Translations under genes and position numbers: made by a program
The notes under the pieces: model-generated
The model's input: only the letters and a program-made list of their open reading frames with translations
What the model was told of the DNA's origin: nothing
The model's database searches: none
Source: Candidatus Kapaibacterium sp.
GTDB taxonomy: Bacteria > Bacteroidota > Ignavibacteria > Palsa-1295
Direction of reading: 5' to 3'
Length of the DNA stretch: 15,725 bases
NCBI GenBank assembly: GCA_038240295.1
Contig: JBBSDW010000082.1
Span: 1 to 15,725, forward strand
Part shown: piece after piece, positions 617 through 15,725 of the stretch
Layout of the letters: every line of letters starts with the position of its first letter
Position numbering within the stretch: position 1 is the first letter of the stretch

Positions 617-2140
617 ATGAGAAATACAACTGATCGTTTCGTTACTTCTTTCTTTATCGCCTTTCTTCTTTGCGGTGCGGTTATCGGCGTTGAGGGCGTT
701 CGCGCTCAGGGTCTCAGTGATGCACTTCGTGTTTCTACGAACGAACTTCCAAGCGGGCCTCGCGCAACGGGTCTGAATGGATCGCAAATTGGAACCCCAG
801 GTGGATTCGACGCGCTGCAATGGAATCCTGCTGCAATTGCACCCAATGAGTTCAACGAGGTAGGCGTATCGCTTTATTATCGCGGTCACAATTCGGAAGC
901 ACAATTTCTCGGGACATCGCTAGGCGATAACATTACGACGATGTCGCTTGGCTCGCTTGGGCTAACTTCCGTTTCGCCGACGCGTAGAGGTCATCTCGTC
1001 TTCGGTCTATCGTACGATCAGGTTCGGGATTATACTTCGAGCTATTCTTTTAGCGCGGTCAATCCGAATTCTTCGTTTCTGAATACGCAAGGTTTTGTCA
1101 ACGATCCGGGCCTTGGCCCAAAAACGGAGCCAAACCAGTCATATCTCGATCAGACAAATCTTGCATGGCAGTTGCACCTGACATACAATGTACCCGACTC
1201 GGGTGTAGCATCGCTCAAGACGCCGTTCGCCGGCGGCTTGCAGCAATCGGGCACGGTCACGCAGGAGGGTGGAATGCACGCACTTCGCGGAGGCGCAGCG
1301 ATAGATATCGCTGAAGGAATTTCCGTAGGCGCGGCGCTCAATCTTTATTACGGCACGTACACGTATCGTCGCGACTTAGTGGAGAAAGATGTTGCGGGCC
1401 TGTTCAATTCTGGTGATTCCACACCCAATAATTTCAGAAGCGCAGATATCATTGACACACGGGACCAGGAGCAGACAGGTATCAGTCTAAAACTTGGGTT
1501 GCTCGCGTATCAAAATGACTTTGTAAAATTCGGCGCAACGATCGAAACACCGGGTGTCTATCACGTGAGCGATCACTTTCATCGCTCAGGTACCGCGGAC
1601 TTTTATCACGCAAGTTATGTCAGTACGCCAAACGTCGAAACCGATTTGACAAATACGTACGACATGACCACGCCGCTAAAGCTCGGAGCCGGTGTGTCTT
1701 TTCATTTCCTGGGCGCTTCTCTTATGGGTAGTGCGAACTACCAGGATATGTCGCAGACACGGTTCTCGAATAGCGATGTAGATCTTTCGAACTTGAACGA
1801 CGATGCGCGCAAGAACTTGCGTGGCGTACTCTCGTGGCAGATCGGCGCCGAATACATCATTCCATTTGCAGGAATTGCGCTGCGGGCAGGGTACGGCGTC
1901 GAGCCATCGTCCTATAAGAACGACCCTTCGACCTACGATACAAAGACCCTCTCGTTCGGCGCAGGAGTCTTGCTAAGTAAGTCCTTCGTGATCGAAGCGG
2001 GGTATCAGCGGGTAACGTATACGACCGACCATTTGCTCTACAGCGATCTTGATGTCGCCGGCAACCCTGTCAGCGCCGCGATCAACGTCGACGCCGTTAA
2101 ACGCGACCAGGTCTCCGTTGGATTTGGCTATCGATTCTAA
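617..2140 (+). CDS. FadL/OmpP1/TodX-family outer-membrane beta-barrel channel, possibly PorV/LptO-like given the T9SS context
   Basis: N-terminal Sec signal peptide (MRNTTDRFVTSFFIAFLLCGAVIGVEGVRAQ). An NPA motif lies early in the mature protein (LQWNPAAI), as in the FadL hatch domain. The body shows alternating amphipathic beta-strand patterns. The C-terminus ends in an aromatic residue (...VGFGYRF), typical of OM beta-barrels. Length is 507 aa. Confidence 0.75.
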   Translation: MRNTTDRFVTSFFIAFLLCGAVIGVEGVRAQGLSDALRVSTNELPSGPRATGLNGSQIGTPGGFDALQWNPAAIAPNEFNEVGVSLYYRGHNSEAQFLGTSLGDNITTMSLGSLGLTSVSPTRRGHLVFGLSYDQVRDYTSSYSFSAVNPNSSFLNTQGFVNDPGLGPKTEPNQSYLDQTNLAWQLHLTYNVPDSGVASLKTPFAGGLQQSGTVTQEGGMHALRGGAAIDIAEGISVGAALNLYYGTYTYRRDLVEKDVAGLFNSGDSTPNNFRSADIIDTRDQEQTGISLKLGLLAYQNDFVKFGATIETPGVYHVSDHFHRSGTADFYHASYVSTPNVETDLTNTYDMTTPLKLGAGVSFHFLGASLMGSANYQDMSQTRFSNSDVDLSNLNDDARKNLRGVLSWQIGAEYIIPFAGIALRAGYGVEPSSYKNDPSTYDTKTLSFGAGVLLSKSFVIEAGYQRVTYTTDHLLYSDLDVAGNPVSAAINVDAVKRDQVSVGFGYRF

Positions 2141-2744: not shown

Positions 2745-4688
2745 CTACTTCAATTGCAATAGATTCAACGAATACCCGCCATCGCCGGATAGGATACGAA
2801 CTTGATACGTACCAGTGCAAAAAAGCTCAGTGCTAATAAGCGCTGGATGGTTCGGCGAAAGTTGAGTGGCACTCCGGGAGACAAGTTTGCCAAGCGCATC
2901 GAAGACCTCGATCGTCACTTCTCCCAGATCGGCGTCGGAATGAATCAATGCATACGTGCTCGCGGGGTTTGGGATGATGCGCAGAGTCGGAATCTTGCTG
3001 TAGCGTGTGAATTGGGAGATCAGTGGTGTGCCGCAGCCGAGTTTGCCGCAGACAGTGCTGATGATCGGCGAAGCTGTTATGGCGCAGATCTCTGAAGATT
3101 GCGTGATCACAAACGAGTCGAGAATAACGCTCGTGCAACTGCTGTCCTTCGGATAAATATGAAAGACGGCATATCCGGCTACATTTCCTTTCATTGAAGC
3201 TGCAGCTTGCGGAAAGAGCACATGCGCGAAGCCAACCCAGCGCGCCGTCGTGGCGTCGATCTGGCGGCCAGCTTGATACGATCCTGCATAGACCAGCATC
3301 GTCGTATCGTAACGAACGGCAAAGTCAAGATCACCAATAAACGATTGACTACTCGAAATGATCGGCACATAAATACTGCCGCCGATCGTGTCGTTGGAGA
3401 TATCCGCGGTCGTGAATGTGACCGTGGGAGCGTCACCACCGACTGCACTCAACGGGATGGTTTGTTCTTCGCCGCTTGCGAAGATATGCAACCGTGCAGC
3501 GTAGCTGCGAGCACTGGTAGGCAAAAAGATAACGCTCACAGAATCTCCTCTCGAAGGTATCGCTACGAAATTGAGTGAGTCAGCTCCATCGATGCTGAAC
3601 GAATCGATCGATGGCGTCCCGCAAAGCCCCAGCACTGCAAGTCCCATGCTGACGTCCGAGCAGGGCAGGACCGTATCGGGAAAATTCACCGACAGTGGTT
3701 GCACGCTCAGACCAATGCGCGGCACCACGGAATCGCCGCCGCTATTTGTCGTGCGCCAGACATTGCCTTCGGAGTCAGTGGCAACGATGATGTTGTCGGT
3801 GATCGCCGAGATCAGACGCGTGTCATACGTATTACTCGGTCCGCCGATACTCGTCCAGATTACACCATGATCGACGGAGCGGTAAATGCCATCCGTGATA
3901 GAGGGACAATAGACTGCGTTAGGAGAAACCGCAATGCTCCCGCAGAAAAAGGGATGATTCCTGCTAACCTGATTTGTCCAGGTCGCACCCAGATCTGTTG
4001 TTAAAAACAGTTGCGAGTACGCGTCGGAAGGGGAGATGTAATCTTCGTTCGAAAGCACGACTCGCGAAAGCTGGCAAGAATCGACGCCGAACGTAAACGA
4101 ATCGAAGTCGATCGCGCCCGCGCTCGCAACCCACGTGGCGCCCATGTCAGTAGAGCGATGCAAAAATCCGCCTCCCTGATCGCCGCCAAAATAGAGAACC
4201 GATCCGTCGCGGGACGTCGTGATATAAAATGAAGCAGGGGATTGCACCACATTTTTCCAGGACGCGCCAGCATCGGTCGATAATGCTATCACGCCCGAGG
4301 AATAGGCGATGGCAGCAACCATTGGCGAGCCGATAAAGCAGGCGGAGAGCGCCGCGCCGACGCTCGCCAGCTTCCAGGTCGTACCGCCATTACGTGTGAT
4401 ATAGGTGCCATTGATACAGGCGGCGATCCCGTTCGAGGCATCGATGAACTGGATGTCGTTGGCCGTGACAATGTTTCCGACCTTCGCCCAGGTAATGCCG
4501 AGATCATCCGAGCGGAACACGCTCCCTTTCGCGAGCCAAAGTCTGCCGTCGCGGTAGCTCATCGCACCGTTGCTGCCGGCCGGAACAAGATTCGGTGCCA
4601 CCATCTTCCACTGCGCTTCCGAACGGATCGGAAGCGCGAGTGTGAGCGAGGTGAGCATAACCAGAATGATGAGCACCGATAGTCTCAT
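2745..4688 (-). CDS. Secreted BNR/Asp-box repeat beta-propeller protein (sialidase/Ycf48/sortilin-like fold) with a T9SS C-terminal sorting domain
   Basis: Signal peptide MRLSVLIILVMLTSLTLALPIRSEAQ. Multiple S-x-D-x-G-x-T-W Asp-boxes (SDDLGITW, TRNGGTTW, STDAGASW, STDMGATW, TTDLGATW, SVDHGVIW). The C-terminal ~75 aa (IIPNPASTYALI...VTIEVFDALGKLV...GTYQVRI...) match the Por_Secre_tail pattern. Confidence 0.85.
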   Translation of the reverse strand: MRLSVLIILVMLTSLTLALPIRSEAQWKMVAPNLVPAGSNGAMSYRDGRLWLAKGSVFRSDDLGITWAKVGNIVTANDIQFIDASNGIAACINGTYITRNGGTTWKLASVGAALSACFIGSPMVAAIAYSSGVIALSTDAGASWKNVVQSPASFYITTSRDGSVLYFGGDQGGGFLHRSTDMGATWVASAGAIDFDSFTFGVDSCQLSRVVLSNEDYISPSDAYSQLFLTTDLGATWTNQVSRNHPFFCGSIAVSPNAVYCPSITDGIYRSVDHGVIWTSIGGPSNTYDTRLISAITDNIIVATDSEGNVWRTTNSGGDSVVPRIGLSVQPLSVNFPDTVLPCSDVSMGLAVLGLCGTPSIDSFSIDGADSLNFVAIPSRGDSVSVIFLPTSARSYAARLHIFASGEEQTIPLSAVGGDAPTVTFTTADISNDTIGGSIYVPIISSSQSFIGDLDFAVRYDTTMLVYAGSYQAGRQIDATTARWVGFAHVLFPQAAASMKGNVAGYAVFHIYPKDSSCTSVILDSFVITQSSEICAITASPIISTVCGKLGCGTPLISQFTRYSKIPTLRIIPNPASTYALIHSDADLGEVTIEVFDALGKLVSRSATQLSPNHPALISTELFCTGTYQVRILSGDGGYSLNLLQLK

Positions 4689-4715: not shown

Positions 4716-5693
4716 TTATTTCACTGGTCCATTTACGTTTAGCAACGGTGTAAGCTTCGAATCGAGTGGAGCAATCACAAAGGTCGCATTTTTCGAATTC
4801 GCAAGATCCTTCAGCGTCGTGATGTAATTGTATTGCAGGTATTGATTCGTCAGCGAACTTGCGATGATCTTCTGCGCATCCGAAATACCGCCAGCTTCGA
4901 CGCGCTTTCGGTCGGCCTCCTGCGACTCGCGCTGGAGTACGTACTGCATCTTTTGCGATTCCTGCTCGGCAGCGATCTTCTCGTCGATCGCGGTGCGCAC
5001 TTTCTCCGGCAATAAAATATCGCGAAGCAGAACCCCTTCGAGGATTATGCCGCGATTCTTGAACGAGCCGATCAACTTATCCCGAACCGTATTCGTATAA
5101 TCATCTCGTCTCGAAGCATAAAGGTCGGTCGCAGCATAATCAACCGCCGCATCGCGAAGCGAAGAGCGGATCTCCGGGCGCACGATCTTCTCCACATAAT
5201 CGAGACCGATCTTATTATAGACGACCGGTGCGCTGCTTGGCGAGAGATGATATTGTACGGTCACTTCGAGTTGCAGCGTGAGCCCATCTCGGCTGAGCAC
5301 CTGGATCGCATCGTCGCCTTTGAGCTGGCCTTCATTTGTCTTCGCCGACATCGTGTAAGCCTGCGTACGAATGTCCATGCGCACAACATTCACGAGCGGG
5401 TTGATCACATGAAAACCCGATTCAAGGGTTTCCGAACTCGTCTGTCCGAAGAGAACCTGAATGCCGACTTCGCCCGGCTCAATGGTGACGAATGCGCCAA
5501 AGGCCAGCACCAGCACGGCGAGTGAAATGAAGAGCGGGCCAGCTATGCCGAGCGCCCGGTGGATCGTTTCGCGCTGACGAACTTCGTTGCCGTATTGACC
5601 GGTCGGCCCGATCGTAAGTGCAAAACGTTTTTTATTGGCGAGCGCGAGAATTCCTAAAACGAGGAGGATTGCAGCGAAAAAGAGCGATTCCAT
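4716..5693 (-). CDS. SPFH/band-7 (prohibitin/HflC-like) membrane protein
   Basis: N-terminal transmembrane helix (MESLFFAAILLVLGILALANKKR). The body resembles band-7 domains (...QVLSRDGLTLQLEVTVQYHL..., ...LLPEKVRTAIDEKIAAEQESQKMQYVLQRESQEADRKRVEAGGISDAQKII...). It lies 27 bp upstream of, and on the same strand as, the BNR gene. Confidence 0.8.
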   Translation of the reverse strand: MESLFFAAILLVLGILALANKKRFALTIGPTGQYGNEVRQRETIHRALGIAGPLFISLAVLVLAFGAFVTIEPGEVGIQVLFGQTSSETLESGFHVINPLVNVVRMDIRTQAYTMSAKTNEGQLKGDDAIQVLSRDGLTLQLEVTVQYHLSPSSAPVVYNKIGLDYVEKIVRPEIRSSLRDAAVDYAATDLYASRRDDYTNTVRDKLIGSFKNRGIILEGVLLRDILLPEKVRTAIDEKIAAEQESQKMQYVLQRESQEADRKRVEAGGISDAQKIIASSLTNQYLQYNYITTLKDLANSKNATFVIAPLDSKLTPLLNVNGPVK

Positions 5694-5770
5694 GGTAGTG
5701 TGTTAGCGTAATAATGAGTGCGAATTTACTGGTTTCCCAGCGCGTTTCTCTGATTCCACTTATGCGAATC

Positions 5771-6439
5771 ATGGCAAAACTCATTTCGCTCAACGTTGGC
5801 CTTGCTCGTACGACGCCCGCTACAGAGCCGCCGTTCAATCGGGAATGGACTTCCGGCATCTGGAAAGATCCGGTCGAAGGAAAGCATTTTTTGAGCATTC
5901 CAAAAACGAAACGCACCCCGGCGCTCGCGGGAGATCAGCAGCAAGACCCAAGATATCACGGCGGTCCTGACAACGCGATCAACGTATACCCGATCGAGCA
6001 TTATGAACGCTGGCGCAAACATCTCCACCTTGCTAAGCTTGGCTTTGGCGCATTCGGCGAAAACATCACAAGCGAAGGCTTGACCGAGGCAAGCGTCTGC
6101 GTGGGCGATTCATTCGCGGTGGGCGATGCGATCCTGCAGATCACACAACCCCGCCAACCCTGCTGGAAACTTGCCTGGAAATGGAAAGCAAAAGATTTCG
6201 TGAAAGACCTCGTCCAAGCTGGCACAACCGGCTGGTACATGCGCGTGCTCAAAGAAGGCACTATACAGACGGGCGACACGATCACGCTACTTGAACGACT
6301 TCATCCCGATTGGACGATCGACCGACTCAACGGCGCTATGCTGGATAGATGGCTCGACACTGAGATCGCTCGCGAACTAATCGAAATGCAGGAGCTCTCA
6401 AACTCGTGGAGAGCCACGTTCGAAAGTCGCGTGAGGTGA
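5771..6439 (+). CDS. MOSC-domain protein (YiiM-like molybdenum-cofactor sulfurase C-terminal domain family)
   Basis: MAKLISLNVGLARTT... N-terminus and a GAFGENITSEGL...VCVGD...ILQITQPRQPCWKL core typical of MOSC/YiiM. The ORF is open from 5714, and ATG 5762 is an alternative start, but ATG 5771 gives the canonical N-terminus. It is divergent from the SPFH gene. Confidence 0.75.
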   Translation: MAKLISLNVGLARTTPATEPPFNREWTSGIWKDPVEGKHFLSIPKTKRTPALAGDQQQDPRYHGGPDNAINVYPIEHYERWRKHLHLAKLGFGAFGENITSEGLTEASVCVGDSFAVGDAILQITQPRQPCWKLAWKWKAKDFVKDLVQAGTTGWYMRVLKEGTIQTGDTITLLERLHPDWTIDRLNGAMLDRWLDTEIARELIEMQELSNSWRATFESRVR

Positions 6440-6734: not shown

Positions 6735-7643
6735 ATGTTGGGAGTTTTCGCGATCAGCGCGCTTACAGTGCTGATGGCGTTTTGCGTGCTACCTGCCAAT
6801 TTGTTTGCGCAGCATCCCTATAAATACGACGTCGAATATCAATCGGGACGGAACGAGCTTTTTGTCTGGATGCACTTCGATTCTTCAACAGACGTAAACT
6901 ACGTACGTCAGAACGATTCGAGCGATGCGATGCCGCTCAAACGTGTCGATGTAAAAAGAATTTATTCGATCTCCGATCCGATTCGACCGCCGCATGAGAT
7001 CGAATGGACTTCGCATAAGGATGATGGCTGGGTGCCGATCGATCTCGATGCCTGCGATTGTCTCGGGCATGTTCGTTCCACGGCATTTCATCTTCTCGAT
7101 GCCAAACTTGGCCTGAGTTATCGGGGCAATAGCAGCTATACCCGAGTAACGCAAACGGGGCCGGTCGCAGAGAATTCTGTGTTCTTTAACCCGTTCAACA
7201 AGGGCGGCACGAACCTCGATATTGAGGCGGGCGCTGCGATCGGGTGGAGGGTTCATCATTGGGACCTCGGTCTGCAAGTCGAAGTGATCCCGACAGACGG
7301 CTTCTTTTATTTTCCGATCGCACTGCACGCGCGCTATTATTTCCTGAACGATTGCTGCACATGGAATCTCTTCGTGAACGCTGGCATTCCGTTCGATTTC
7401 CAAACGGGTGCACCGATCTTTATAACGCCGCTCTTCGATAGAAGGCAGCGCAGATATTTCAGCGCAGGTATCGGAAAGATCTGGCCGATGAACGAGTCGC
7501 ATGATTTCGCGATCGACTTGGGATACCGATATATGGTGATCCCGCTCGATCAGATCCAGTGCTGCCCGAGCATCGAGTTTCAGAATCGATTTCCAGCGCG
7601 CGAATCGCAGTCGATCTTTTTACAAGCAGGTTTATCATTTTGA
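6735..7643 (+). CDS. Secreted ~300-aa protein, candidate small outer-membrane beta-barrel. First gene of a three-gene operon.
   Basis: Signal peptide MLGVFAISALTVLMAFCVLPANLFAQ. An in-frame TTG at 6714 would add MKQLRIS and give a better charged n-region. The C-terminal half has alternating amphipathic strands (DLGLQVEVIP, FYFPIALHARYYF, NLFVNAGIPFDF, FAIDLGYRYMVIPL) and ends ...FLQAGLSF. The ORF is open from 6597, but that N-terminus lacks a signal peptide. Confidence 0.65.
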   Translation: MLGVFAISALTVLMAFCVLPANLFAQHPYKYDVEYQSGRNELFVWMHFDSSTDVNYVRQNDSSDAMPLKRVDVKRIYSISDPIRPPHEIEWTSHKDDGWVPIDLDACDCLGHVRSTAFHLLDAKLGLSYRGNSSYTRVTQTGPVAENSVFFNPFNKGGTNLDIEAGAAIGWRVHHWDLGLQVEVIPTDGFFYFPIALHARYYFLNDCCTWNLFVNAGIPFDFQTGAPIFITPLFDRRQRRYFSAGIGKIWPMNESHDFAIDLGYRYMVIPLDQIQCCPSIEFQNRFPARESQSIFLQAGLSF

Positions 7644-9988
7644 TGAGAATCTCAGGAATGCAAATTTTCAGCAGTCTGCAATTGCGGCAAGCCCCACGCT
7701 GGGCCTTGTTTGCGATCGTACTTCTGGCTGGCTGCATTCAGCACACGTTCGATCCGCAGCAGCTTAATCTGCATACGGTGGTCATCCAGACGCTAAAATC
7801 AACAGGGGCGGCTGCGAAAAATGTCGATGTCGCGCTCTTCGATGATAACACGACAACCGCCAACGAAATCTTTTCTGGAAATACCGGCGACTCGGGCGCG
7901 GTATCGATTCGGCTTGAGATCCCAACTTTCGGCCATAGCTATTCGCTAAGGATCAAGAAAAACGATGCGCTCGGCCAACTCATTTTCGCGCGGACGATCT
8001 ATCCGCTCAATCTGAAGTGCGTCGATACGCTGATCCAGATCGTGGTGCCGGAGGCCGACACGACCGTGCAGCGCGATTCCGTTTGCGGCCAGGATGTTCA
8101 GCGAACGTTAACATTCTTTGCCTGTGCTGACACTGAGGTAACACAAGCCTACACGCTCACAAACTGTTCGAACGCACCATATGTGGTGACAGCGAGCAAA
8201 TTTATTCTCGGCTCGCCATTTTCAGTCACCCCGGCTTCAGCCACGATTGCGCCTGGTCTTTCACAGCAGTTCACGATCACCTACGATGGACGAGGTCAAA
8301 CGGCGGACGCGAGCGCAAAACTTACGCTGACAACCACACCAGCCTCCGGCAATGTAACGCTCATTCTCATCGGCCATTTGCGACACGATTGCACGACGCC
8401 GACGCAGCAGATCGTTTGCGGTCAAAACGGAATTTCCGATGTGGTTCGCTTTGGTACTGTTTGCCAAAACGAAGTCACCGGCGCTGAATGTGTATCGCTT
8501 ACAAATACGAATCCAAGCGCTATTACGGTGAGCTTCCCGCAGGCGCCGATCCCGTTTAGTTACGTCGTGACCGATAATGCCGGCGCACAGCACGATGCCT
8601 CGCAGCCGCTCGTACTCAAGCAGGGAGAAAGTGTGACACTCTGCTTTTCGATCGATCCGCTTACTTCCGGTCTGATCAATGCGGATCTAAAATTGCCAAT
8701 GATCTGCGAGGGAAATCCTACGACGTTCACGTACGATATTCCACTCTTGGCGGTCTCGAAGATTTGCAACAATTGCCTTTGCACCGATTATTTCCACGAT
8801 CCGGTCGTGCTTGCGACGAATGTGAAAACGGGCGGCGATACCACCATCACGATCGAGATCTATCGTAACGATCTCAATTGCCCCGTGACGATCGATAAGG
8901 TTGCGCTTGTCGATGCGCTCTCCGAATGGACACTCGTTTCCGTAACACCTGCAGTACCGACGGTCGTGCCGACGGGAAGCCCAGTGACAGCTACGCTGAA
9001 ATTTCATGCGACGCATGCAGGAGCAAATATCGATCATCTTCATTTCAGCATTCTTCCTCAGGGCGCTACAACTCCGTGCACCGGCGAGATCATGCTAAAA
9101 GGGACGGGATGCAACGCAGCATGCGCCGCTGTCCTCATGCCGCCTGAGTGGTTGCCGAGTCCTCTTCCAAACGGACTCGACACATTGTTCTTTACCCAGA
9201 ATGGCGTTCCGCTCGTGTTTGTGAGCACCGCTGGAAGTTCGAGTATAAGCGATGAAGAGTGCATCACACTAAAGATGCCCGACACCGCATGCTCTGCTTC
9301 GACGTTCACGATCGTGCCACCGCGGAGTGCAATGTGGAGTGTGGCTACCACGCCTTCGCCATTGGTACTTGCTCCAGGCGCGATTGCGACCGTTTGCGTT
9401 CGCTTCACCGCTCCCGTGATCGATGAGGTCAGAAAAGATTTTACCCAGGCCGGACTTGAATTAAAGTATACAGACCTCCTGAAGATCATCGATCCGAATG
9501 GCTGCATGAAGAATGTACCGCTCAAGGCTGTGGTCGATACGCTGCCCGAATGTAAGGAATTTGATCTTGCACAGTACGGCTTTATCGGCTCGCAAAACGT
9601 GGTCTATCGTGAAATTTATTCGTTCGGCGGCGGAAGGCAGGACAACGTTCCGGCAGCGACAGGCGGCGCGCCGTCGTTCGGCGATATCTATCTTAAGAAC
9701 GCAACGCTCTTTAGCAGCGTCTCTGGCAACACGCCCCCAGGATTCTTCTTCTGGAAGAACAGCCAGACGCCGATCTGCAATAATATTCAGACAGTCACAT
9801 CGAGCCTGACTACGCTTGGACCTGCCGGACTAAGCTACACGTCAACGCTCACACTCGCCCAATATGATTGGATCGTCGTGAAAGTGACAGCAGGGACGTA
9901 TGCAGTGATCCAGGTAACGGCGACCTATCTTGATGGATTCAACATCCCTCATGCGGTCTGCTCGGTCATTTATCCATTTTATTACTGA
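7643..9988 (+). CDS. Large Cys-rich lipoprotein (~780 aa) composed of at least four tandem Ig-like/ASH-like (choice-of-anchor-D-like) beta-sandwich domains
   Basis: The start ATG 7643 overlaps the upstream stop (ATGA). Lipobox ...FAIVLLAGC. Internal protein repeats, e.g. VCGQDVQRTLTFFAC...TLTNCSNAPYVV...IAPGLSQQFTITY...KLTLTT against VCGQNGISDVVRFGTVC...SLTNTNPSAITV...LKQGESVTLCFSI...DLKL. About 30 Cys. No T9SS C-terminal domain. Confidence 0.75.
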   Translation: MRISGMQIFSSLQLRQAPRWALFAIVLLAGCIQHTFDPQQLNLHTVVIQTLKSTGAAAKNVDVALFDDNTTTANEIFSGNTGDSGAVSIRLEIPTFGHSYSLRIKKNDALGQLIFARTIYPLNLKCVDTLIQIVVPEADTTVQRDSVCGQDVQRTLTFFACADTEVTQAYTLTNCSNAPYVVTASKFILGSPFSVTPASATIAPGLSQQFTITYDGRGQTADASAKLTLTTTPASGNVTLILIGHLRHDCTTPTQQIVCGQNGISDVVRFGTVCQNEVTGAECVSLTNTNPSAITVSFPQAPIPFSYVVTDNAGAQHDASQPLVLKQGESVTLCFSIDPLTSGLINADLKLPMICEGNPTTFTYDIPLLAVSKICNNCLCTDYFHDPVVLATNVKTGGDTTITIEIYRNDLNCPVTIDKVALVDALSEWTLVSVTPAVPTVVPTGSPVTATLKFHATHAGANIDHLHFSILPQGATTPCTGEIMLKGTGCNAACAAVLMPPEWLPSPLPNGLDTLFFTQNGVPLVFVSTAGSSSISDEECITLKMPDTACSASTFTIVPPRSAMWSVATTPSPLVLAPGAIATVCVRFTAPVIDEVRKDFTQAGLELKYTDLLKIIDPNGCMKNVPLKAVVDTLPECKEFDLAQYGFIGSQNVVYREIYSFGGGRQDNVPAATGGAPSFGDIYLKNATLFSSVSGNTPPGFFFWKNSQTPICNNIQTVTSSLTTLGPAGLSYTSTLTLAQYDWIVVKVTAGTYAVIQVTATYLDGFNIPHAVCSVIYPFYY

Positions 9989-10000
9989 TCACTGAGTGCC

Positions 10001-11899
10001 ATGAAACACTTCGCGATCATTCTTACGCTCGGCCTCATCGTTGGCTCGATACTCGACGGTTGCTCCGGGTCGTCCGCACTTTCGCCCAACGCTGGCGAAC
10101 GTTGCGAATCGCCTTCGAAAAAAGAGGGGAATGTTGGTAATGTGATCAACTCGGCGACCGATGATTACGCGCCGAAGTTTATCGGCAACCGGTTGATCTA
10201 TTCAACAGGTATACACATCGCGGGAAAGCATCCCAAGGATCTTCAATCGGAATTCGCAAGTTCCGATCACAGCGGCAATTTTACGCAGGGACGCGTCAAT
10301 CGAGGCTGGGCCCAGGGGCAGTTGCTCGGTTCATCGCCATTCCAGGGGATCCCGCTCGATCTCAACGAGGGCGCATTCGATGTATTGCCCGACAAACATT
10401 ACGGAGTCTTTGCTGCCGAGCGATTGACGGGCGGCGGTGGCCAGTCGTCGCTGATGGATCTCTATGAAGTGCAGTTGAACGATCAGTTTCATGCAACGAG
10501 CACACCCGAACCGATCGCGGGCGTCAACGATCCGGAAGCATGGGATAGCCAGCCTACTTTGAGCGAAGATGGCAATACGCTTTATTTCGTAAGCGATAGA
10601 AATATCTCCGGCAGCGGACCAAGAGGCAATCAACATATCTGGCGTTCAACGCGAAATGGTGGAGCATGGTCGCGACCGATGCTTTTGCCAAAACCATTCA
10701 CATCTACGGGCAACGATGTTTCGCCGAATGTTGGACCCGATGGTTATTTCTATTTTTCATCAGACGGTTCGCCCGATGGTTTGGCCGTGCCAGAAGGAAT
10801 GGGTAGGCGCGATATCTATCGTGTGCCGATCATGAATGGTGAACTTGATGGTACGCCCGAGCGGCTCCCCGCACCCTTCAACTCACCGCAGGACGACGAT
10901 TTTCCGTTCGTCACTCGCGACAAACAATGGATGTTTCTTGCAAGCGATCGCGATTCAGGTTGCGGTCGCCGCGATATCTACGCTTTTCCTGTGCCTGTTT
11001 CGATTCATCTTGCAGGTATCGTGACGCAGACAGTTGAGACCGACGAAGGCTTTGGGCCGGCGCAGGGCATTCAGACGAATCTCTACATCGACGATCACAC
11101 GGCGAACAAACGCTATTCGATCCAGACGACGCAGAAGGGCGAATACGAGGTGCTCCTCAGGCCCGACCACCAATATACCGTAAGCGTTGCCGATTTCGGA
11201 TGCGCCGATCAAACCGGTGCGAGCAGCGTAGATGCCGTTCGCCCGAATGGCTGGGACACTACCTACGTTAGAAATTTTGCGTTGAAACGTAATACGATCA
11301 GTATCGTGCTTGGCAAGCAAAGCAATGTTCCTTTTTTCATCACCGGTTACTGGCGGCCGAATACTGCGGAAAATCTTGCAGCATTCAAACTCCGCAGAGT
11401 AACCGACACGGCCTTCGCGCACATTATTTATATCGACCCGACCGATTACAATTACGAGCAGGGCAGCGCAGAGGTCGATCAGATCTTCGAGAAACAGGTC
11501 TATCGCCCTATCCTCGATTCGATCCTGCCGTTGCTCGGTACTGCATGCTACGATTCAAATTACATCCTTCATCTCAACGTCGAAGGCTATACCGATAAGG
11601 ATTGCATCCACACCGACCGCTATCTCGATCAGAATGTTGCCGACAACGAGATCCCAGTCAACAACGGTGATATGATGGACGGACCCGAGTGCGGCAACAA
11701 AAAGCTTTCGATCCTTCGCGCATATTTTGCGAAGGAAATGATCAAGGAGCATTTGATGCAGGATCCGAAGTTTGCAGCCTACTATAATCAGGGCCGCATT
11801 AAGATCACCTCACATGGCCGAGGGATCGATCACACGGTCAAGAGCAACCAGGGCTTTAACCGGCGTGTCGACGTGACCGCCGAGGTCGAGCGCCGTTGA
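10001..11899 (+). CDS. Lipoprotein with PD40/TolB-like beta-propeller repeats, a carboxypeptidase-regulatory-like domain and a C-terminal OmpA-like peptidoglycan-binding domain. This is the PorE-like architecture of a T9SS component, lacking the N-terminal TPR region.
   Basis: Lipoprotein signal MKHFAIILTLGLIVGSILDGC. PD40-like repeats (DDYAPKFIGNRLIYS, WDSQPTLSEDGNTLYFVSDR, DVSPNVGPDGYFYFSSDG, DDDFPFVTRDKQWMFLASDR...RRDIYAF). A carboxypeptidase-regulatory-like stretch (LAGIVTQTVETDEGFGPAQGIQTNLYI...TTQKGEYEVLLRPDHQYTVSVADFGC). An OmpA_C-like end (NVEGYTDKD...NKKLSILRAYFAKEMI...NRRVDVTAEV). Starts 12 bp after the previous gene. Confidence 0.8.
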   Translation: MKHFAIILTLGLIVGSILDGCSGSSALSPNAGERCESPSKKEGNVGNVINSATDDYAPKFIGNRLIYSTGIHIAGKHPKDLQSEFASSDHSGNFTQGRVNRGWAQGQLLGSSPFQGIPLDLNEGAFDVLPDKHYGVFAAERLTGGGGQSSLMDLYEVQLNDQFHATSTPEPIAGVNDPEAWDSQPTLSEDGNTLYFVSDRNISGSGPRGNQHIWRSTRNGGAWSRPMLLPKPFTSTGNDVSPNVGPDGYFYFSSDGSPDGLAVPEGMGRRDIYRVPIMNGELDGTPERLPAPFNSPQDDDFPFVTRDKQWMFLASDRDSGCGRRDIYAFPVPVSIHLAGIVTQTVETDEGFGPAQGIQTNLYIDDHTANKRYSIQTTQKGEYEVLLRPDHQYTVSVADFGCADQTGASSVDAVRPNGWDTTYVRNFALKRNTISIVLGKQSNVPFFITGYWRPNTAENLAAFKLRRVTDTAFAHIIYIDPTDYNYEQGSAEVDQIFEKQVYRPILDSILPLLGTACYDSNYILHLNVEGYTDKDCIHTDRYLDQNVADNEIPVNNGDMMDGPECGNKKLSILRAYFAKEMIKEHLMQDPKFAAYYNQGRIKITSHGRGIDHTVKSNQGFNRRVDVTAEVERR

Positions 11900-11916: not shown

Positions 11917-13752
11917 TCAGTGCACGATGCTGATCGCGCTTCGCGCAAATCCGGCCGGCGTTCTTAACTCCGCATAATAAACGCCAGACGGAAGCTTCGT
12001 TGCATCGAAGCGTTCGAGGTGTTCGCCTGCAGTTATTTCTTTTTCGAGAACATTCGCAACCTTGCGGCCTTCGACATCGAAGATCGCGAGTGAGACGTTC
12101 GTCCGTTCGGCGAGCGAAAATCGGAATGTCGTTGAAGTGTTAAGCGGATTTGGATAATTCTCCTCGAGCGTCGCGTTTGAAGTTGGCGAACTAATACGAA
12201 CCGCACCTACCGGAGCGGCATCGATCGGCACCCAGGCAGCGTAGGGATTCGTGATGCCGTCGTTCGTTCGCTCATCGCACCAAACAGGAATCGTGTAATT
12301 ATCGGTCATGATCGTCGCCGCGTAATCGCCGACGCCGAAGGAAGCAGACTGATTTGTTGAAAATGCACCGTGATCGGATGATTTGGAGGAAACGATCTGA
12401 TTGGTAGCAAACGTAAGCCCGCCATCGTAAGAATTCGCAGTATAGGCGTTGGTGATCAGCGAATTCACATCGGTTCTTCGATCATACCAGCTGATACCGA
12501 TGATCCCCCGACGGTTCACAGCGATGCTCGGATTATAATGATCACCCAGTCTCGTCTCGACATCATCATTGACGGTTGAGGGAGCCGACCAGGTTGCCCC
12601 GTTATCGGTTGAACGAGAAAAATAAATGTTGAGCGGTGTCGTTGCAGCATTGAGCGTACCGTTGGCGCACCAGGTCAGATAAAGAAATCCGAGGTGACTT
12701 GTTTGCGAGGTATCGATCGTAAAATTCGGACACGGGTACTGCCGACCCTGTTCGATACCCGGAACGGGATGACTATCATCCAGCGAAAATCCCGGAAAAT
12801 GCACATCCACGGCTTTTTGAGCTGTCGAAAAGGTCACACCTCCATCGTTCGAAACAGAATGCCAGATCGCGAACTGACTTCCATCCTGCGATCCAAAAAA
12901 AGTGCAGTGAACACCGCCTTTTGGATCTACGACCACATTCGGAAACTGGACCATGGCAAAATTTGCACCGGCGATCAGCGAACCGAGTTGATTGAAGCTC
13001 GTCCCATTCGGGATCATTCGGCGAACCTGGATCGATGCCGTGCGATTGATCGAAACGATCGCGGCGTAAAGCGATCCGCGATAAGGAGAATTGCTCCGAT
13101 CGGCCGCGAGCCATTCTTTGTCGTATGCCTGCGAAGCGCTTTGCGTGATCGTCCCGCTCGCAACATACCCATTGGGGGCGCGAGTGAACGTGGCGCCGCC
13201 ATCCGTCGAGCTTGCCCAATAGATCTTGTTATAGTAGTAACTCTGGTTGTTTGCAAAAAAGTAAATGTCGATCCAGGCCATATAGAGCTTGCCATCAGCG
13301 CCCCAGGTGAACATCGGATCGCCGCCGCCGCCGACCAAGGTGTTCTGCTCGACCGGCAGAGGAGTGAAGCTCGATTTTTTCCATGTGCGGCCAAAATCCT
13401 TCGTGTAGTAGATCGGGCAAACAACTCCGAGGGTGCTCGCCGTATTGATCGGCGAGACGATGATATTCGTGCTGTCGGCTGGATTCATCGTCGCAAAAAC
13501 CTCTGCCTCCGCCGTGCGTTCGATATCGACATCAATCTCCCGGGGCCCGCCAAGTGTCTCACGTTTGTGTTCCGTTTCATTCGTCTTGGCAATCGCAGGA
13601 CCTCGCATCATCGAGGATTTCTCTCGAAGATACTTAGCGATAAGGCTATCGCCCATCCACATCGATTGCGCCGAAACAAGCGCAGGCAGCGATGCAAACG
13701 CGAGCACAAGGATAATTGCAACAGCAATTATACGGACAGGTGTTTTTTTCAT
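11917..13752 (-). CDS. Secreted BNR/Asp-box repeat (sialidase-like or glycoside-hydrolase-like beta-propeller) protein with a T9SS C-terminal sorting domain
   Basis: Signal peptide MKKTPVRIIAVAIILVLAFASLPALVSAQ (the ORF is open to 13800, but the 13752 ATG gives the canonical signal). Asp-boxes KDFGRTW, SSTDGGATF, SVSNDGGVTF, SRSTDNGATW, NSYDGGLTF. C-terminal domain ...NYPNPLNTSTTFRFSL...VSLAIFDVEGRKV...LPSGVYYAELRT... Confidence 0.85.
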   Translation of the reverse strand: MKKTPVRIIAVAIILVLAFASLPALVSAQSMWMGDSLIAKYLREKSSMMRGPAIAKTNETEHKRETLGGPREIDVDIERTAEAEVFATMNPADSTNIIVSPINTASTLGVVCPIYYTKDFGRTWKKSSFTPLPVEQNTLVGGGGDPMFTWGADGKLYMAWIDIYFFANNQSYYYNKIYWASSTDGGATFTRAPNGYVASGTITQSASQAYDKEWLAADRSNSPYRGSLYAAIVSINRTASIQVRRMIPNGTSFNQLGSLIAGANFAMVQFPNVVVDPKGGVHCTFFGSQDGSQFAIWHSVSNDGGVTFSTAQKAVDVHFPGFSLDDSHPVPGIEQGRQYPCPNFTIDTSQTSHLGFLYLTWCANGTLNAATTPLNIYFSRSTDNGATWSAPSTVNDDVETRLGDHYNPSIAVNRRGIIGISWYDRRTDVNSLITNAYTANSYDGGLTFATNQIVSSKSSDHGAFSTNQSASFGVGDYAATIMTDNYTIPVWCDERTNDGITNPYAAWVPIDAAPVGAVRISSPTSNATLEENYPNPLNTSTTFRFSLAERTNVSLAIFDVEGRKVANVLEKEITAGEHLERFDATKLPSGVYYAELRTPAGFARSAISIVH

Positions 13753-13830
13753 TTGATCAATGACGTCAGAAGCTAACCGATTGAGAAACCCAAGCCTCAC
13801 AGAAAAGTTACACGCGCTTTCTAGGAGTTG

Positions 13831-14706: not shown

Positions 14707-15725
14707 TTACTCTCCGATGATTCGTGCGAGTTCTTTGTGCGAGATTGTCATTGCTACTTGCGGGTCGATGATTCCGAGTGCGAGCAGGCGGTCGATCGCG
14801 GCCTTTTTGGTTTCGTCTTCGATTGTTTGGACGGAGTCGGTTTTGAAGATGTGTTTGAGCCAGTGGACGCCTTTTGAGAGGTGAGTCCGTTCGTCGGCGT
14901 TTACATAGTCGAAGACGCGGCCTGTGAGGTCATCGCCTTTTTCGTAGGCTTCGCGTGCGTAGCGGAGGCATTCCTGGACTATGTTCGCTTCGCCGAAAAG
15001 GTTGATCTCGGCGAACGAATATTTCGCTTCCATTTTTGCACGGACTTTAATACCGAGCAGCCGATTCAAAAGATCGAACGGATCGTAGCCGAGCGACTCG
15101 AGCGATTTATGTCCGAGTTCCGTGTGACGGGTCTCGTCCCAGATGATTCGCGCAAGGTCAAAATCGAATCCGAAGGGAACATCGGTGATCTCGTAGAGTA
15201 CGTTACCGAATGTTTCAATCGCGTCCATCTCGTCGCGTTGTGTGCGAACGAGCGATAGACGGGTTTTATCAAATTCGGATTCGTATTCGATCTTACCTGC
15301 ATCGGCCACGTGATAATCGTAGGTCGTTTCGAATGTCTTGAATCGTGCATCGCGTGTGCCTACGAATGAACGCTGGAAGGGATGTGCGCCGTTTGAACGG
15401 AGAAATTCCGGCCGCGGTACCTTCGGCAAAAGTCCGGTGATGCCCCCAATAGAGCGCAACATTTTTTCGATGTGGTATTCCCACTTGCGGATCGAATGTT
15501 GCTCGTACCCGCCTTCGATATAGGCAAGCGATGCGCCTTTGCCCCATGCGATCATTTCGTCGTAATCAATGAGTATTTGCTTCATCGACCGGATCGTCGG
15601 CGCATCCGCAACCTGGTCGGTGTGCGAGATGTGTTCGGCGTAGGCACGACGAAGGTGGGGAAGGATCACGTTGTAAAGCGCTGCAAGAAAGTGCGCCGGT
15701 GATTCGGCCTGGAGCAGTTCGGCAA
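14707..15725 (-). CDS. Ferritin-like di-iron carboxylate-type protein (two ExxH motifs: DETRHTELG, ADERTHLSKG). N-terminus truncated by the window edge.
   Basis: Stop TAA at 14707-14709. The reading frame stays open past the listed GTG at 15669 to the window end (...AELLQAESPAHFLAALYNVILPHL...), so the true start is outside the window. Two EXXH motifs ~85 aa apart suggest a ferritin-like four-helix-bundle metal site. Confidence 0.7.
   Translation of the reverse strand, partial: AELLQAESPAHFLAALYNVILPHLRRAYAEHISHTDQVADAPTIRSMKQILIDYDEMIAWGKGASLAYIEGGYEQHSIRKWEYHIEKMLRSIGGITGLLPKVPRPEFLRSNGAHPFQRSFVGTRDARFKTFETTYDYHVADAGKIEYESEFDKTRLSLVRTQRDEMDAIETFGNVLYEITDVPFGFDFDLARIIWDETRHTELGHKSLESLGYDPFDLLNRLLGIKVRAKMEAKYSFAEINLFGEANIVQECLRYAREAYEKGDDLTGRVFDYVNADERTHLSKGVHWLKHIFKTDSVQTIEDETKKAAIDRLLALGIIDPQVAMTISHKELARIIGE

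What the first reader, a model, noticed from the sequence alone, without database searches (positions are those of the whole stretch)
10001..11899. PorE-like domain architecture (beta-propeller + CRD + OmpA_C lipoprotein) without the N-terminal TPR region
The combination of a lipoprotein signal, PD40/WD40-like propeller repeats, a carboxypeptidase-regulatory-like beta-sandwich and an OmpA_C peptidoglycan-binding domain matches the described architecture of the T9SS component PorE of Porphyromonas gingivalis. Here only ~50 aa precede the first propeller blade, so the TPR module appears absent. The OmpA_C domain also carries a ~40-aa insertion between GYTD and the LS..RA helix (IHTDRYLDQNVADNEIPVNNGDMMDGPECGNKK).
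Basis: partly seen in the sequence, partly recalled or inferred. Interest (0 to 1): 0.55.

Follow-up and report, generated by a model that had tools for sequence, protein, structure and literature searches.

The report
Divergent PorE-like cell-wall tether lipoprotein
This gene encodes an outer-membrane lipoprotein with a propeller, a small beta-sandwich and a highly diverged peptidoglycan-binding domain; it is a distant paralogue of PorE-type proteins rather than PorE itself, and it sits in a conserved three-gene operon.

Summary
The ORF at 10001-11899 (+), 632 aa, is real and has full-length homologues at E down to 1e-274.
- a lipobox cysteine (C21);
- no TPR region;
- a PD40 beta-propeller (about residues 45-332);
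- a CRD-like beta-sandwich (334-437);
- a C-terminal OmpA-like domain (443-632).

It is not a PorE orthologue:
- It scores 78 bits against the PorE profile (cut-off 600) and 110 bits against CHU_0125 (cut-off 620).
- TPR-less architecture is normal in this clade (Ignavibacteria and Kapabacteria).
- Canonical PD40-CRD-OmpA paralogues occur in related genomes, some next to a family gene.

The gene is the last of a conserved operon: an outer-membrane beta-barrel, an Ig-like lipoprotein, then this protein. The most likely role is tethering an outer-membrane complex to peptidoglycan. I rate it a new variant of a known kind, of modest interest.

The parts
10001..11899 (+). g3: 632-aa lipoprotein with PD40 propeller, CRD-like sandwich and divergent OmpA-like domain (the finding)
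   Evidence: ORF. Full-length homologues. AF2 model, mean pLDDT 84.7.
10001..10063 (+). Signal peptide and lipobox ending at Cys21
   Evidence: Read from the sequence. The cysteine is conserved in the closest homologues.
10133..10996 (+). PD40/TolB-like beta-propeller, about residues 45-332
   Evidence: Pfam PD40, E = 5e-11. PorE and CHU_0125 profile alignments. Strand pattern of the model. Foldseek TolB hits.
11000..11311 (+). CRD-like beta-sandwich, about residues 334-437
   Evidence: Weak Pfam CarboxypepD_reg, E = 0.019. The PorE profile match extends to profile position 511. All-beta segment in the model.
11327..11896 (+). [quoted passage not shown]
11597..11695 (+). Family-specific insertion, residues 533-565, between the peptidoglycan-binding Asp and Asn
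   Evidence: The D-to-N spacing is 33 residues here and at least 27 in 148 family members, against 7 in 64 of 66 canonical domains. Y541 is conserved inside the insertion. It is modelled with pLDDT of about 87-95.
6735..7643 (+). g1: operon partner, about 300-aa predicted outer-membrane beta-barrel protein (signal peptide; C-terminus ...AGLSF)
   Evidence: It lies upstream in the same order in about 40 related loci. Only weak OMP beta-barrel profile hints. It forms its own family with no Pfam domain.
7658..9988 (+). g2: operon partner, about 776-aa lipoprotein (lipobox LLAGC) with HYDIN/ASH-type Ig-like domains; its stop codon is 12 nt before the g3 start
   Evidence: Pfam HYDIN_VesB_CFA65-like_Ig, E = 3.8e-12. 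Conserved position. Sequence read.

Best explanation
g3 is a periplasm-facing outer-membrane lipoprotein that ties an outer-membrane protein assembly to the peptidoglycan.

Its lipid anchor holds it at the outer membrane. Its C-terminal domain has the OmpA/Pal/MotB fold and keeps the three residues that hold the meso-DAP of the peptidoglycan stem peptide. In PorE these are Asp576, Asn584 and Arg591; here they are D532, N566 and R573. The propeller, and perhaps the beta-sandwich, serves as the protein-binding platform. The most plausible partners are the two co-transcribed products: g1, an outer-membrane beta-barrel, and g2, an Ig-like lipoprotein. This mirrors the way PorE bridges the PorP barrel to the cell wall.

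Evolutionarily, g3 belongs to a paralogous family of the PD40-CRD-OmpA group (PorE, CHU_0125) that is specific to Ignavibacteria and Kapabacteria. In this family the OmpA domain has diverged and gained a conserved insertion of at least 20 aa in the loop that lines the binding pocket.

Shown: the architecture, the fold, conservation of the three residues, the conserved operon, and paralogy with canonical forms.
Inferred: peptidoglycan binding, the g1/g2 partnership, and the physiological role (envelope integrity or anchoring of a surface complex).
For: Fold
- hhalign gives E = 2.6e-7.
- The C-terminal profile gives marginal PomB and MotB hits in the PDB.

Binding residues
- D532 is present in 181 of 183 family sequences, N566 in 178 of 183, and R573 in 181 of 183.
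- Their role in PorE is taken from PMC7192894 and PMC12773672.

The same divergent domain sits where peptidoglycan anchors normally sit
- It is fused C-terminally to OMP_b-brl barrels, which is the OmpA layout.
- It is followed by a SPOR domain in the 870-aa paralogues.

Operon
- The order g1, g2, g3 with 12-14 nt gaps is conserved in about 40 loci at 25-60% protein identity.

Precedents
- PorE-PorP-PG1035 complex: PorE bridges peptidoglycan and the PorP barrel (PMC9143113).
- CHU_0125 is needed for outer-membrane integrity (PMC5891637).
- Canonical Kapabacteria PD40-OmpA genes also follow a beta-barrel gene.
Against: - No binding experiment has been done.
- The insertion lies exactly in the loop between the Asp and the Asn and could narrow, cap or re-specify the pocket. 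I could not inspect model coordinates.
- g1 and g2 are linked to g3 only by gene order.
- g1 is not recognisable as PorP/SprF, and g2 has no detectable type-B CTD.
- The lipobox has an unusual Asp at position -2.
Confidence: 0.62

Rival explanations
1. g3 is the functional PorE of this organism's type IX secretion system, a streamlined TPR-less orthologue that anchors the secretion machinery to the cell wall.
For: - It has the same domain order as PorE without the TPR region.
- The contig encodes two T9SS type-A CTD cargo proteins and a PorV/BamG-like barrel.
Against: - It scores 77.6 bits against the PorE profile (cut-off 600), lower than its 110.5 bits against CHU_0125.
- Canonical PD40-CRD-OmpA proteins of the same clade score about 3.5 times higher on the PorE profile. 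They co-occur with this family, sometimes as neighbours.
- Many genomes carry two copies of the divergent family.
- The conserved operon partners are not detectably PorP-like.
Confidence: 0.12
2. g3 is a fused TolB-plus-Pal analogue that maintains the outer membrane or constricts it at cell division, independent of any secretion system.
For: - The propeller is most similar to TolB, and the C-terminal domain is Pal-like in fold.
- The long paralogues end in a SPOR domain that matches FtsN. That SPOR domains target septal peptidoglycan is from my own knowledge, not from a tool result.
- In some Ignavibacteria the operon directly follows mlaE-mlaF-mlaD.
- The best profile match is CHU_0125, an outer-membrane-integrity protein.
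Against: - The window protein itself has no SPOR domain.
- The Mla linkage is limited to a few loci.
- The TolB profile scores only 11.9 bits against a cut-off of 343.
- This reading overlaps with the best explanation rather than excluding it.
Confidence: 0.18
3. The C-terminal domain no longer binds peptidoglycan. The insertion and extra helices have turned it into a protein- or glycan-binding module, and g3 is a periplasmic scaffold.
For: - The domain is invisible to Pfam OmpA, and neither NCBIfam match reaches it.
- The exhaustive profile search finds only 404 clusters, far fewer than the OmpA superfamily would give, and every hit scanned was a family member.
- An insertion of at least 20 aa sits in the pocket-lining loop in every family member that matches the motif.
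Against: - The three ligand-binding residues and the NRR motif are nearly invariant across 183 diverged sequences. That is hard to explain without retained ligand binding.
- The domain replaces the canonical one in OmpA-type barrel fusions.
Confidence: 0.08

Closest known systems
PorE (PG1058/PGN_1296) of Porphyromonas gingivalis, T9SS component; NCBIfam NF052230
   Same: - Outer-membrane lipoprotein with a beta-propeller, then a CRD, then an OmpA-like domain.
- The Asp/Asn/Arg peptidoglycan-binding residues are kept.
- The propeller and CRD align to the PorE profile, E = 6.4e-22.
- PorE works with an outer-membrane barrel, PorP. Here a barrel gene lies in the same operon.
   Different: - No TPR domain.
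- 77.6 bits against a cut-off of 600.
- The OmpA domain is not detectable by sequence and carries an insertion of about 26 aa plus longer helices.
- The operon partners are not recognisably PorP or type-B CTD proteins.
CHU_0125 family (Cytophaga hutchinsonii 'Pal'); NCBIfam NF053607
   Same: - PD40 plus OmpA-type outer-membrane protein.
- Best-scoring curated profile: 110.5 bits, E = 8e-32.
- It has a documented role in outer-membrane integrity.
   Different: - CHU_0125 has TPR and a canonical OmpA_C domain that is 40% identical to E. coli Pal.
- The window protein matches only profile positions 153-478 and is far below the cut-off of 620.
Canonical TPR-less PD40-CRD-OmpA proteins of Kapabacteria and Ignavibacteria (for example P0043 = MCX7737330.1, 488 aa)
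   Same: - Same clade and same TPR-less architecture.
- About 30% identity over the propeller.
- Also preceded by an outer-membrane barrel gene.
   Different: - They have a canonical Pfam OmpA domain (E = 2e-25) with 7 residues between the Asp and the Asn.
- They score about 270-280 bits on the PorE and CHU_0125 profiles.
- They have no Ig-like lipoprotein partner gene.
MotB/PomB and Pal/OmpA C-terminal peptidoglycan-binding domains
   Same: - Same GxTD...N..LS..RA...NRR motifs.
- PomB and MotB are the only OmpA-type PDB chains that the C-terminal profile touches, at marginal E-values.
   Different: - The family has an extra N-terminal helical segment, a long helix 1, and the insertion between beta-2 and helix 2.
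- The domain is about 190 aa, against about 100-130 aa.

Membership tests
PorE (T9SS), NF052230 | Whole-protein score at or above the curated cut-off (600 bits) | tested here: not met
   77.6 bits. Residues 36-434 match profile positions 142-511 only.
PorE (T9SS), NF052230 | N-terminal TPR domain (PorE residues 25-149) | tested here: not met
   No TPR family in Pfam at E <= 1. The profile match starts after the TPR region. Only about 25 residues separate C21 from the propeller.
PorE (T9SS), NF052230 | Beta-propeller followed by a CRD beta-sandwich | tested here: met
   PD40, E = 5e-11, and CarboxypepD_reg, E = 0.019. Profile alignment through the CRD. AF2 model. TolB-like Foldseek hits.
PorE (T9SS), NF052230 | C-terminal OmpA_C-like domain with peptidoglycan-binding Asp, Asn and Arg | tested here: met
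   [not shown]
PorE (T9SS), NF052230 | Outer-membrane lipoprotein | tested here: met
   The signal peptide and conserved Cys21 were read from the sequence and alignment. No dedicated predictor was run.
PorE (T9SS), NF052230 | Complex with PorP and requirement for T9SS secretion | not testable with these tools
   The neighbouring barrel g1 gives no PorP/SprF match.
CHU_0125 family, NF053607 | Whole-protein score at or above 620 bits, with TPR + PD40 + canonical OmpA_C | tested here: not met
   110.5 bits, covering profile positions 153-478 only. No TPR and no Pfam OmpA.
[quoted passage not shown] | Pfam OmpA gathering score | tested here: not met
   No hit at E <= 1. The family profile finds only 404 clusters in 1.84 billion proteins, far fewer than the OmpA superfamily would give, and the hits scanned carry PD40, SPOR or OMP_b-brl but no Pfam OmpA.
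[quoted passage not shown] | Beta-alpha-beta-alpha-beta-beta fold shared with OmpA, Pal and MotB, plus the ligand-binding residues | tested here: met
   [not shown]
[quoted passage not shown] | Actual binding of peptidoglycan | not testable with these tools
   Needs sacculus or muropeptide binding assays.
TolB, TIGR02800 | Score at or above 343 bits, with the N-terminal TolA-binding domain and a six-bladed propeller | tested here: not met
   11.9 bits. Only the propeller resembles TolB.

The most novel reading that the evidence does not exclude
The g1-g2-g3 operon encodes a previously undescribed envelope complex of Ignavibacteria and Kapabacteria. It would consist of a small outer-membrane barrel, a large Ig-like lipoprotein and a wall tether, built on the same principle as PorP-cargo-PorE. 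Its OmpA-like domain would have been remodelled by a conserved insertion in the pocket loop so that it reads a different or additional peptidoglycan feature.
Probability: 0.25. Interest if true: 0.55.

Novelty: new variant of a known kind. Interest (0 to 1): 0.36.

Why it matters
- It defines a protein family that standard annotation labels only as 'PD40 domain-containing' or 'hypothetical'. The C-terminal domain profile finds at least 404 clusters at 50% identity, and at least 569 loci occur in GTDB species genomes.
- These proteins are in fact cell-wall tethers whose OmpA-like domain current profiles miss.
- A PorE-type architecture outside Bacteroidia should not be read as PorE. The clade holds several paralogous PD40-OmpA lineages.
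- The conserved pairing of such tethers with outer-membrane barrel genes suggests a general building principle for anchored outer-membrane complexes in this superphylum.
- The insertion offers a natural experiment on how the OmpA pocket tolerates remodelling.

Tried and rejected
- Sequence searches against the PDB. The single protein gave nothing. The full-length family profile gave only designed propellers. The C-terminal profile gave only marginal PomB (0.034) and MotB (0.55) hits.
- Foldseek on the full-length model was dominated by propellers and said nothing about the C-terminal domain. I therefore modelled that domain alone.
- Exact look-ups of the window protein and of g1 found no record. 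The organism could not be named. Cluster look-up shows only that the window is a whole 15,725-bp NCBI contig.
- I tested whether g1 is PorP/SprF-like and whether g2 carries a type-B CTD. There was no support in Pfam or NCBIfam, in the PDB or in homologue annotation.
- I tested whether the Mla operon is a general neighbour. It is present only in a few Ignavibacteria loci, so I rejected it as a family feature.
- The afdb50 fold library was not available.
- No tRNA or Rfam element lies in the window.
- The promoter and terminator scan gave fewer sites than the shuffled controls.

Full report
**1. The observation**

The window holds an ATG-initiated ORF at 10001-11899 (+) of 632 aa. It is a genuine gene. 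A search of 5.8 billion proteins returns full-length homologues: P0001 (62% identity, E = 1.3e-274), P0003-P0008, P0014 and P0029, plus a set of proteins of about 870 aa from Ignavibacteria.

The N-terminus, MKHFAIILTLGLIVGSILDG-C21, is a signal peptide ending in a lipobox cysteine. The six closest homologues keep that cysteine.

Pfam finds PD40 repeats (E = 5e-11) and a sub-threshold CarboxypepD_reg match (E = 0.019, residues 362-408). It finds no TPR and, notably, no OmpA domain at E <= 1. NCBIfam aligns residues 48-394 to CHU_0125_OmpA (110.5 bits, cut-off 620) and residues 36-434 to T9SS_PorE (77.6 bits, cut-off 600). In both cases the match covers only the propeller and CRD part of the profile.

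**2. The C-terminal domain**

No solved structure is found by sequence with the single protein. The full-length family profile finds only designed propellers.

- Profile comparison. I compared a profile of the family's last 200 residues with a profile of the C-termini of canonical PD40-OmpA proteins. hhalign gives 93.4% probability and E = 2.6e-7. It aligns the GYTD strand, the GN.KLS.LRA helix and the G.G...NRR end.
- PDB profile search. The C-terminal profile gives marginal PomB and MotB hits.
- Structure. AlphaFold2 on the full-length family alignment gives mean pLDDT 84.7. On the C-terminal 201 residues alone it gives pLDDT 91.1 and pTM 0.89.

The fold is therefore OmpA-like, but it is no closer to PorE than to any other member of the superfamily.

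**3. Binding residues and the insertion**

In PorE the side chains of Asp576, Asn584 and Arg591 hold the meso-DAP of the stem peptide (PMC7192894). Asp576 and Asn584 are required for gingipain secretion (PMC12773672).

The equivalents here are D532, N566 and R573. They are invariant in the 23-sequence alignment. In 183 diverged family sequences they are present in 181, 178 and 181 respectively, and R621 of the NRR motif in 179.

The Asn-to-Arg spacing is the canonical 7. Between the Asp and the Asn there are 33 residues, against 7 in 64 of 66 canonical PD40-OmpA proteins. In 148 family members the spacing is never below 27; it is most often 31-33 and reaches 72 or more in the long forms.

The insertion contains conserved positions (Y541 is Y or F in 181 of 183 sequences, and G556 is also conserved) and is modelled with high confidence. 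I could not inspect coordinates, so its effect on the pocket is unknown.

**4. A separate family**

An exhaustive HMMER scan of 1.84 billion representative proteins with the C-terminal profile finds only 404 clusters at E <= 0.001. That is far fewer than the OmpA superfamily would give. The hits I scanned show PD40, with or without CRD or SPOR, or OMP_b-brl with no Pfam OmpA, so this appears to be a discrete family.

The domain occurs in three architectures:
- PD40-CRD-domain, the window type; a stand-alone subfamily of about 580 aa also has PD40 followed by this domain;
- the same followed by a linker and a SPOR domain, about 870 aa;
- an N-terminal OMP_b-brl barrel plus the domain, about 460 aa, which is the layout of OmpA itself.

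All three place the domain where a wall anchor is expected. This supports retained peptidoglycan binding.

**5. Distribution and paralogy**

A scan of one genome per GTDB species finds at least 569 loci. The best 80 are all MAGs, labelled mostly Ignavibacteria, Kapabacteria, 'Chlorobiota' or 'Bacteroidetes'. The closest is only 36% identical, and several genomes carry two copies.

Canonical TPR-less PD40-CRD-OmpA proteins exist in the same clade. P0043 and P0044 have Pfam OmpA at E about 1e-25. They score about 265-280 bits on both the PorE and CHU_0125 profiles, roughly 2.5 to 3.5 times the window protein's scores.

Canonical and divergent genes co-occur on the same contigs:
- they are adjacent in L056, L057 and L077, and on the same contig in L052 and L058;
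- L057:9714-11717 is confirmed by Pfam as PD40 + OmpA.

Lack of TPR is therefore a property of the clade. The divergent family is a paralogue, not the lineage's PorE orthologue. Whether the source genome itself has a canonical copy cannot be checked. The window is a complete 15,725-bp contig and contains none.

**6. Genomic context**

g3 is the last gene of a tight operon.

- g1 (6735-7643) has a signal peptide and ends in ...AGLSF. Its orthologues end in ...RFGLTF, a typical outer-membrane barrel terminus, and are 26-69% identical.
- g2 (7658-9988) starts 14 nt after g1. It has a lipobox (LLAGC) and HYDIN/ASH-type Ig-like domains.
- g3 starts 12 nt after g2.

The order g1-g2-g3 recurs in about 40 loci, including the distant Ignavibacteria long forms.

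g1 has no Pfam or NCBIfam family beyond faint barrel hints and only 'hypothetical' relatives. g2 has no detectable type-B CTD.

In a few Ignavibacteria the operon follows mlaEFD, but this is not general. The canonical Kapabacteria PD40-OmpA gene is likewise preceded by an OMP_b-brl_2 gene. So the pairing 'barrel gene then PD40-OmpA tether' recurs.

The contig also encodes two T9SS type-A CTD proteins and a weak PorV/BamG-like barrel. The organism therefore has a T9SS.

**7. Interpretation**

The best-supported reading is an outer-membrane lipoprotein that tethers an outer-membrane assembly to peptidoglycan. It would do so through a diverged but functionally conserved OmpA-like domain, with the propeller as the docking platform.

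The model for this is PorE bridging PorP to the wall (PMC9143113). A second precedent is CHU_0125 maintaining outer-membrane integrity (PMC5891637).

The g1/g2 partnership and the physiological role are inferred from gene order only. The rivals, with the evidence for and against each, are given in their own sections:
- a true PorE orthologue;
- a TolB/Pal-like division or integrity factor;
- loss of peptidoglycan binding.

**8. Novelty and score**

PD40-OmpA lipoproteins are common, and the TPR-less form is ordinary in this clade. The headline of the finding is therefore unremarkable.

Three things go beyond current annotation:
- the OmpA-like domain family with a conserved pocket-loop insertion, invisible to the profile libraries searched here;
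- its modular reuse in three architectures;
- the conserved three-gene operon.

I rate this as a new variant of a known kind, with interest 0.36.

Noticed in passing
window 6735-7643 (+) and 7658-9988 (+): An uncharacterised outer-membrane barrel (g1) and an Ig-like lipoprotein (g2) form a conserved operon with the finding's gene in about 40 related loci. Neither belongs to a curated family.
   Followed up: partly
window 617-2140 (+): A 507-aa protein with weak, sub-threshold matches to the BamG (E = 1.2e-10) and PorV/PorQ (E = 2.3e-9) barrel families.
   Followed up: no
window 2745-4688 (-) and 11917-13800 (-): Two BNR/sortilin-type propeller proteins end in T9SS type-A C-terminal sorting domains, so the organism has a type IX secretion system.
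   Followed up: partly
P0219, P0267-P0276 (about 455-467 aa proteins): The same divergent OmpA-like domain is fused to an N-terminal OMP_b-brl barrel. This gives an OmpA-style protein whose wall-binding half Pfam does not recognise.
   Followed up: partly
P0012, P0018, P0124, P0171 (long paralogues; for example L005:10001-12634): Family members of about 870 aa add a low-complexity linker and a C-terminal SPOR domain matching FtsN, a second peptidoglycan-binding module.
   Followed up: partly
L005/L006 4595-7506; L020-L023: In some Ignavibacteria the g1-g2-g3 operon lies directly downstream of mlaE-mlaF-mlaD, on the same strand.
   Followed up: partly
L088-L091 7131-9467: Canonical Kapabacteria PD40-CRD-OmpA genes are preceded at an 18-nt gap by an OMP_b-brl_2 barrel gene. 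A second PD40-OmpA paralogue lies 3 kb upstream.
   Followed up: no
L084 6696-9722; L057 5502-11717: The subfamily of about 580 aa stands alone. In L084 it is next to alanine racemase. In L057 it is convergent with a canonical 667-aa PD40-OmpA gene and lies near a LysM protein.
   Followed up: partly
window 4716-5693 (-), 5714-6439 (+), 14707-15669 (-): Ordinary neighbours: an SPFH/Band 7 protein, a MOSC/YiiM protein and a DUF455 protein. The Band 7 and MOSC pair is also upstream of the operon in L003.
   Followed up: no
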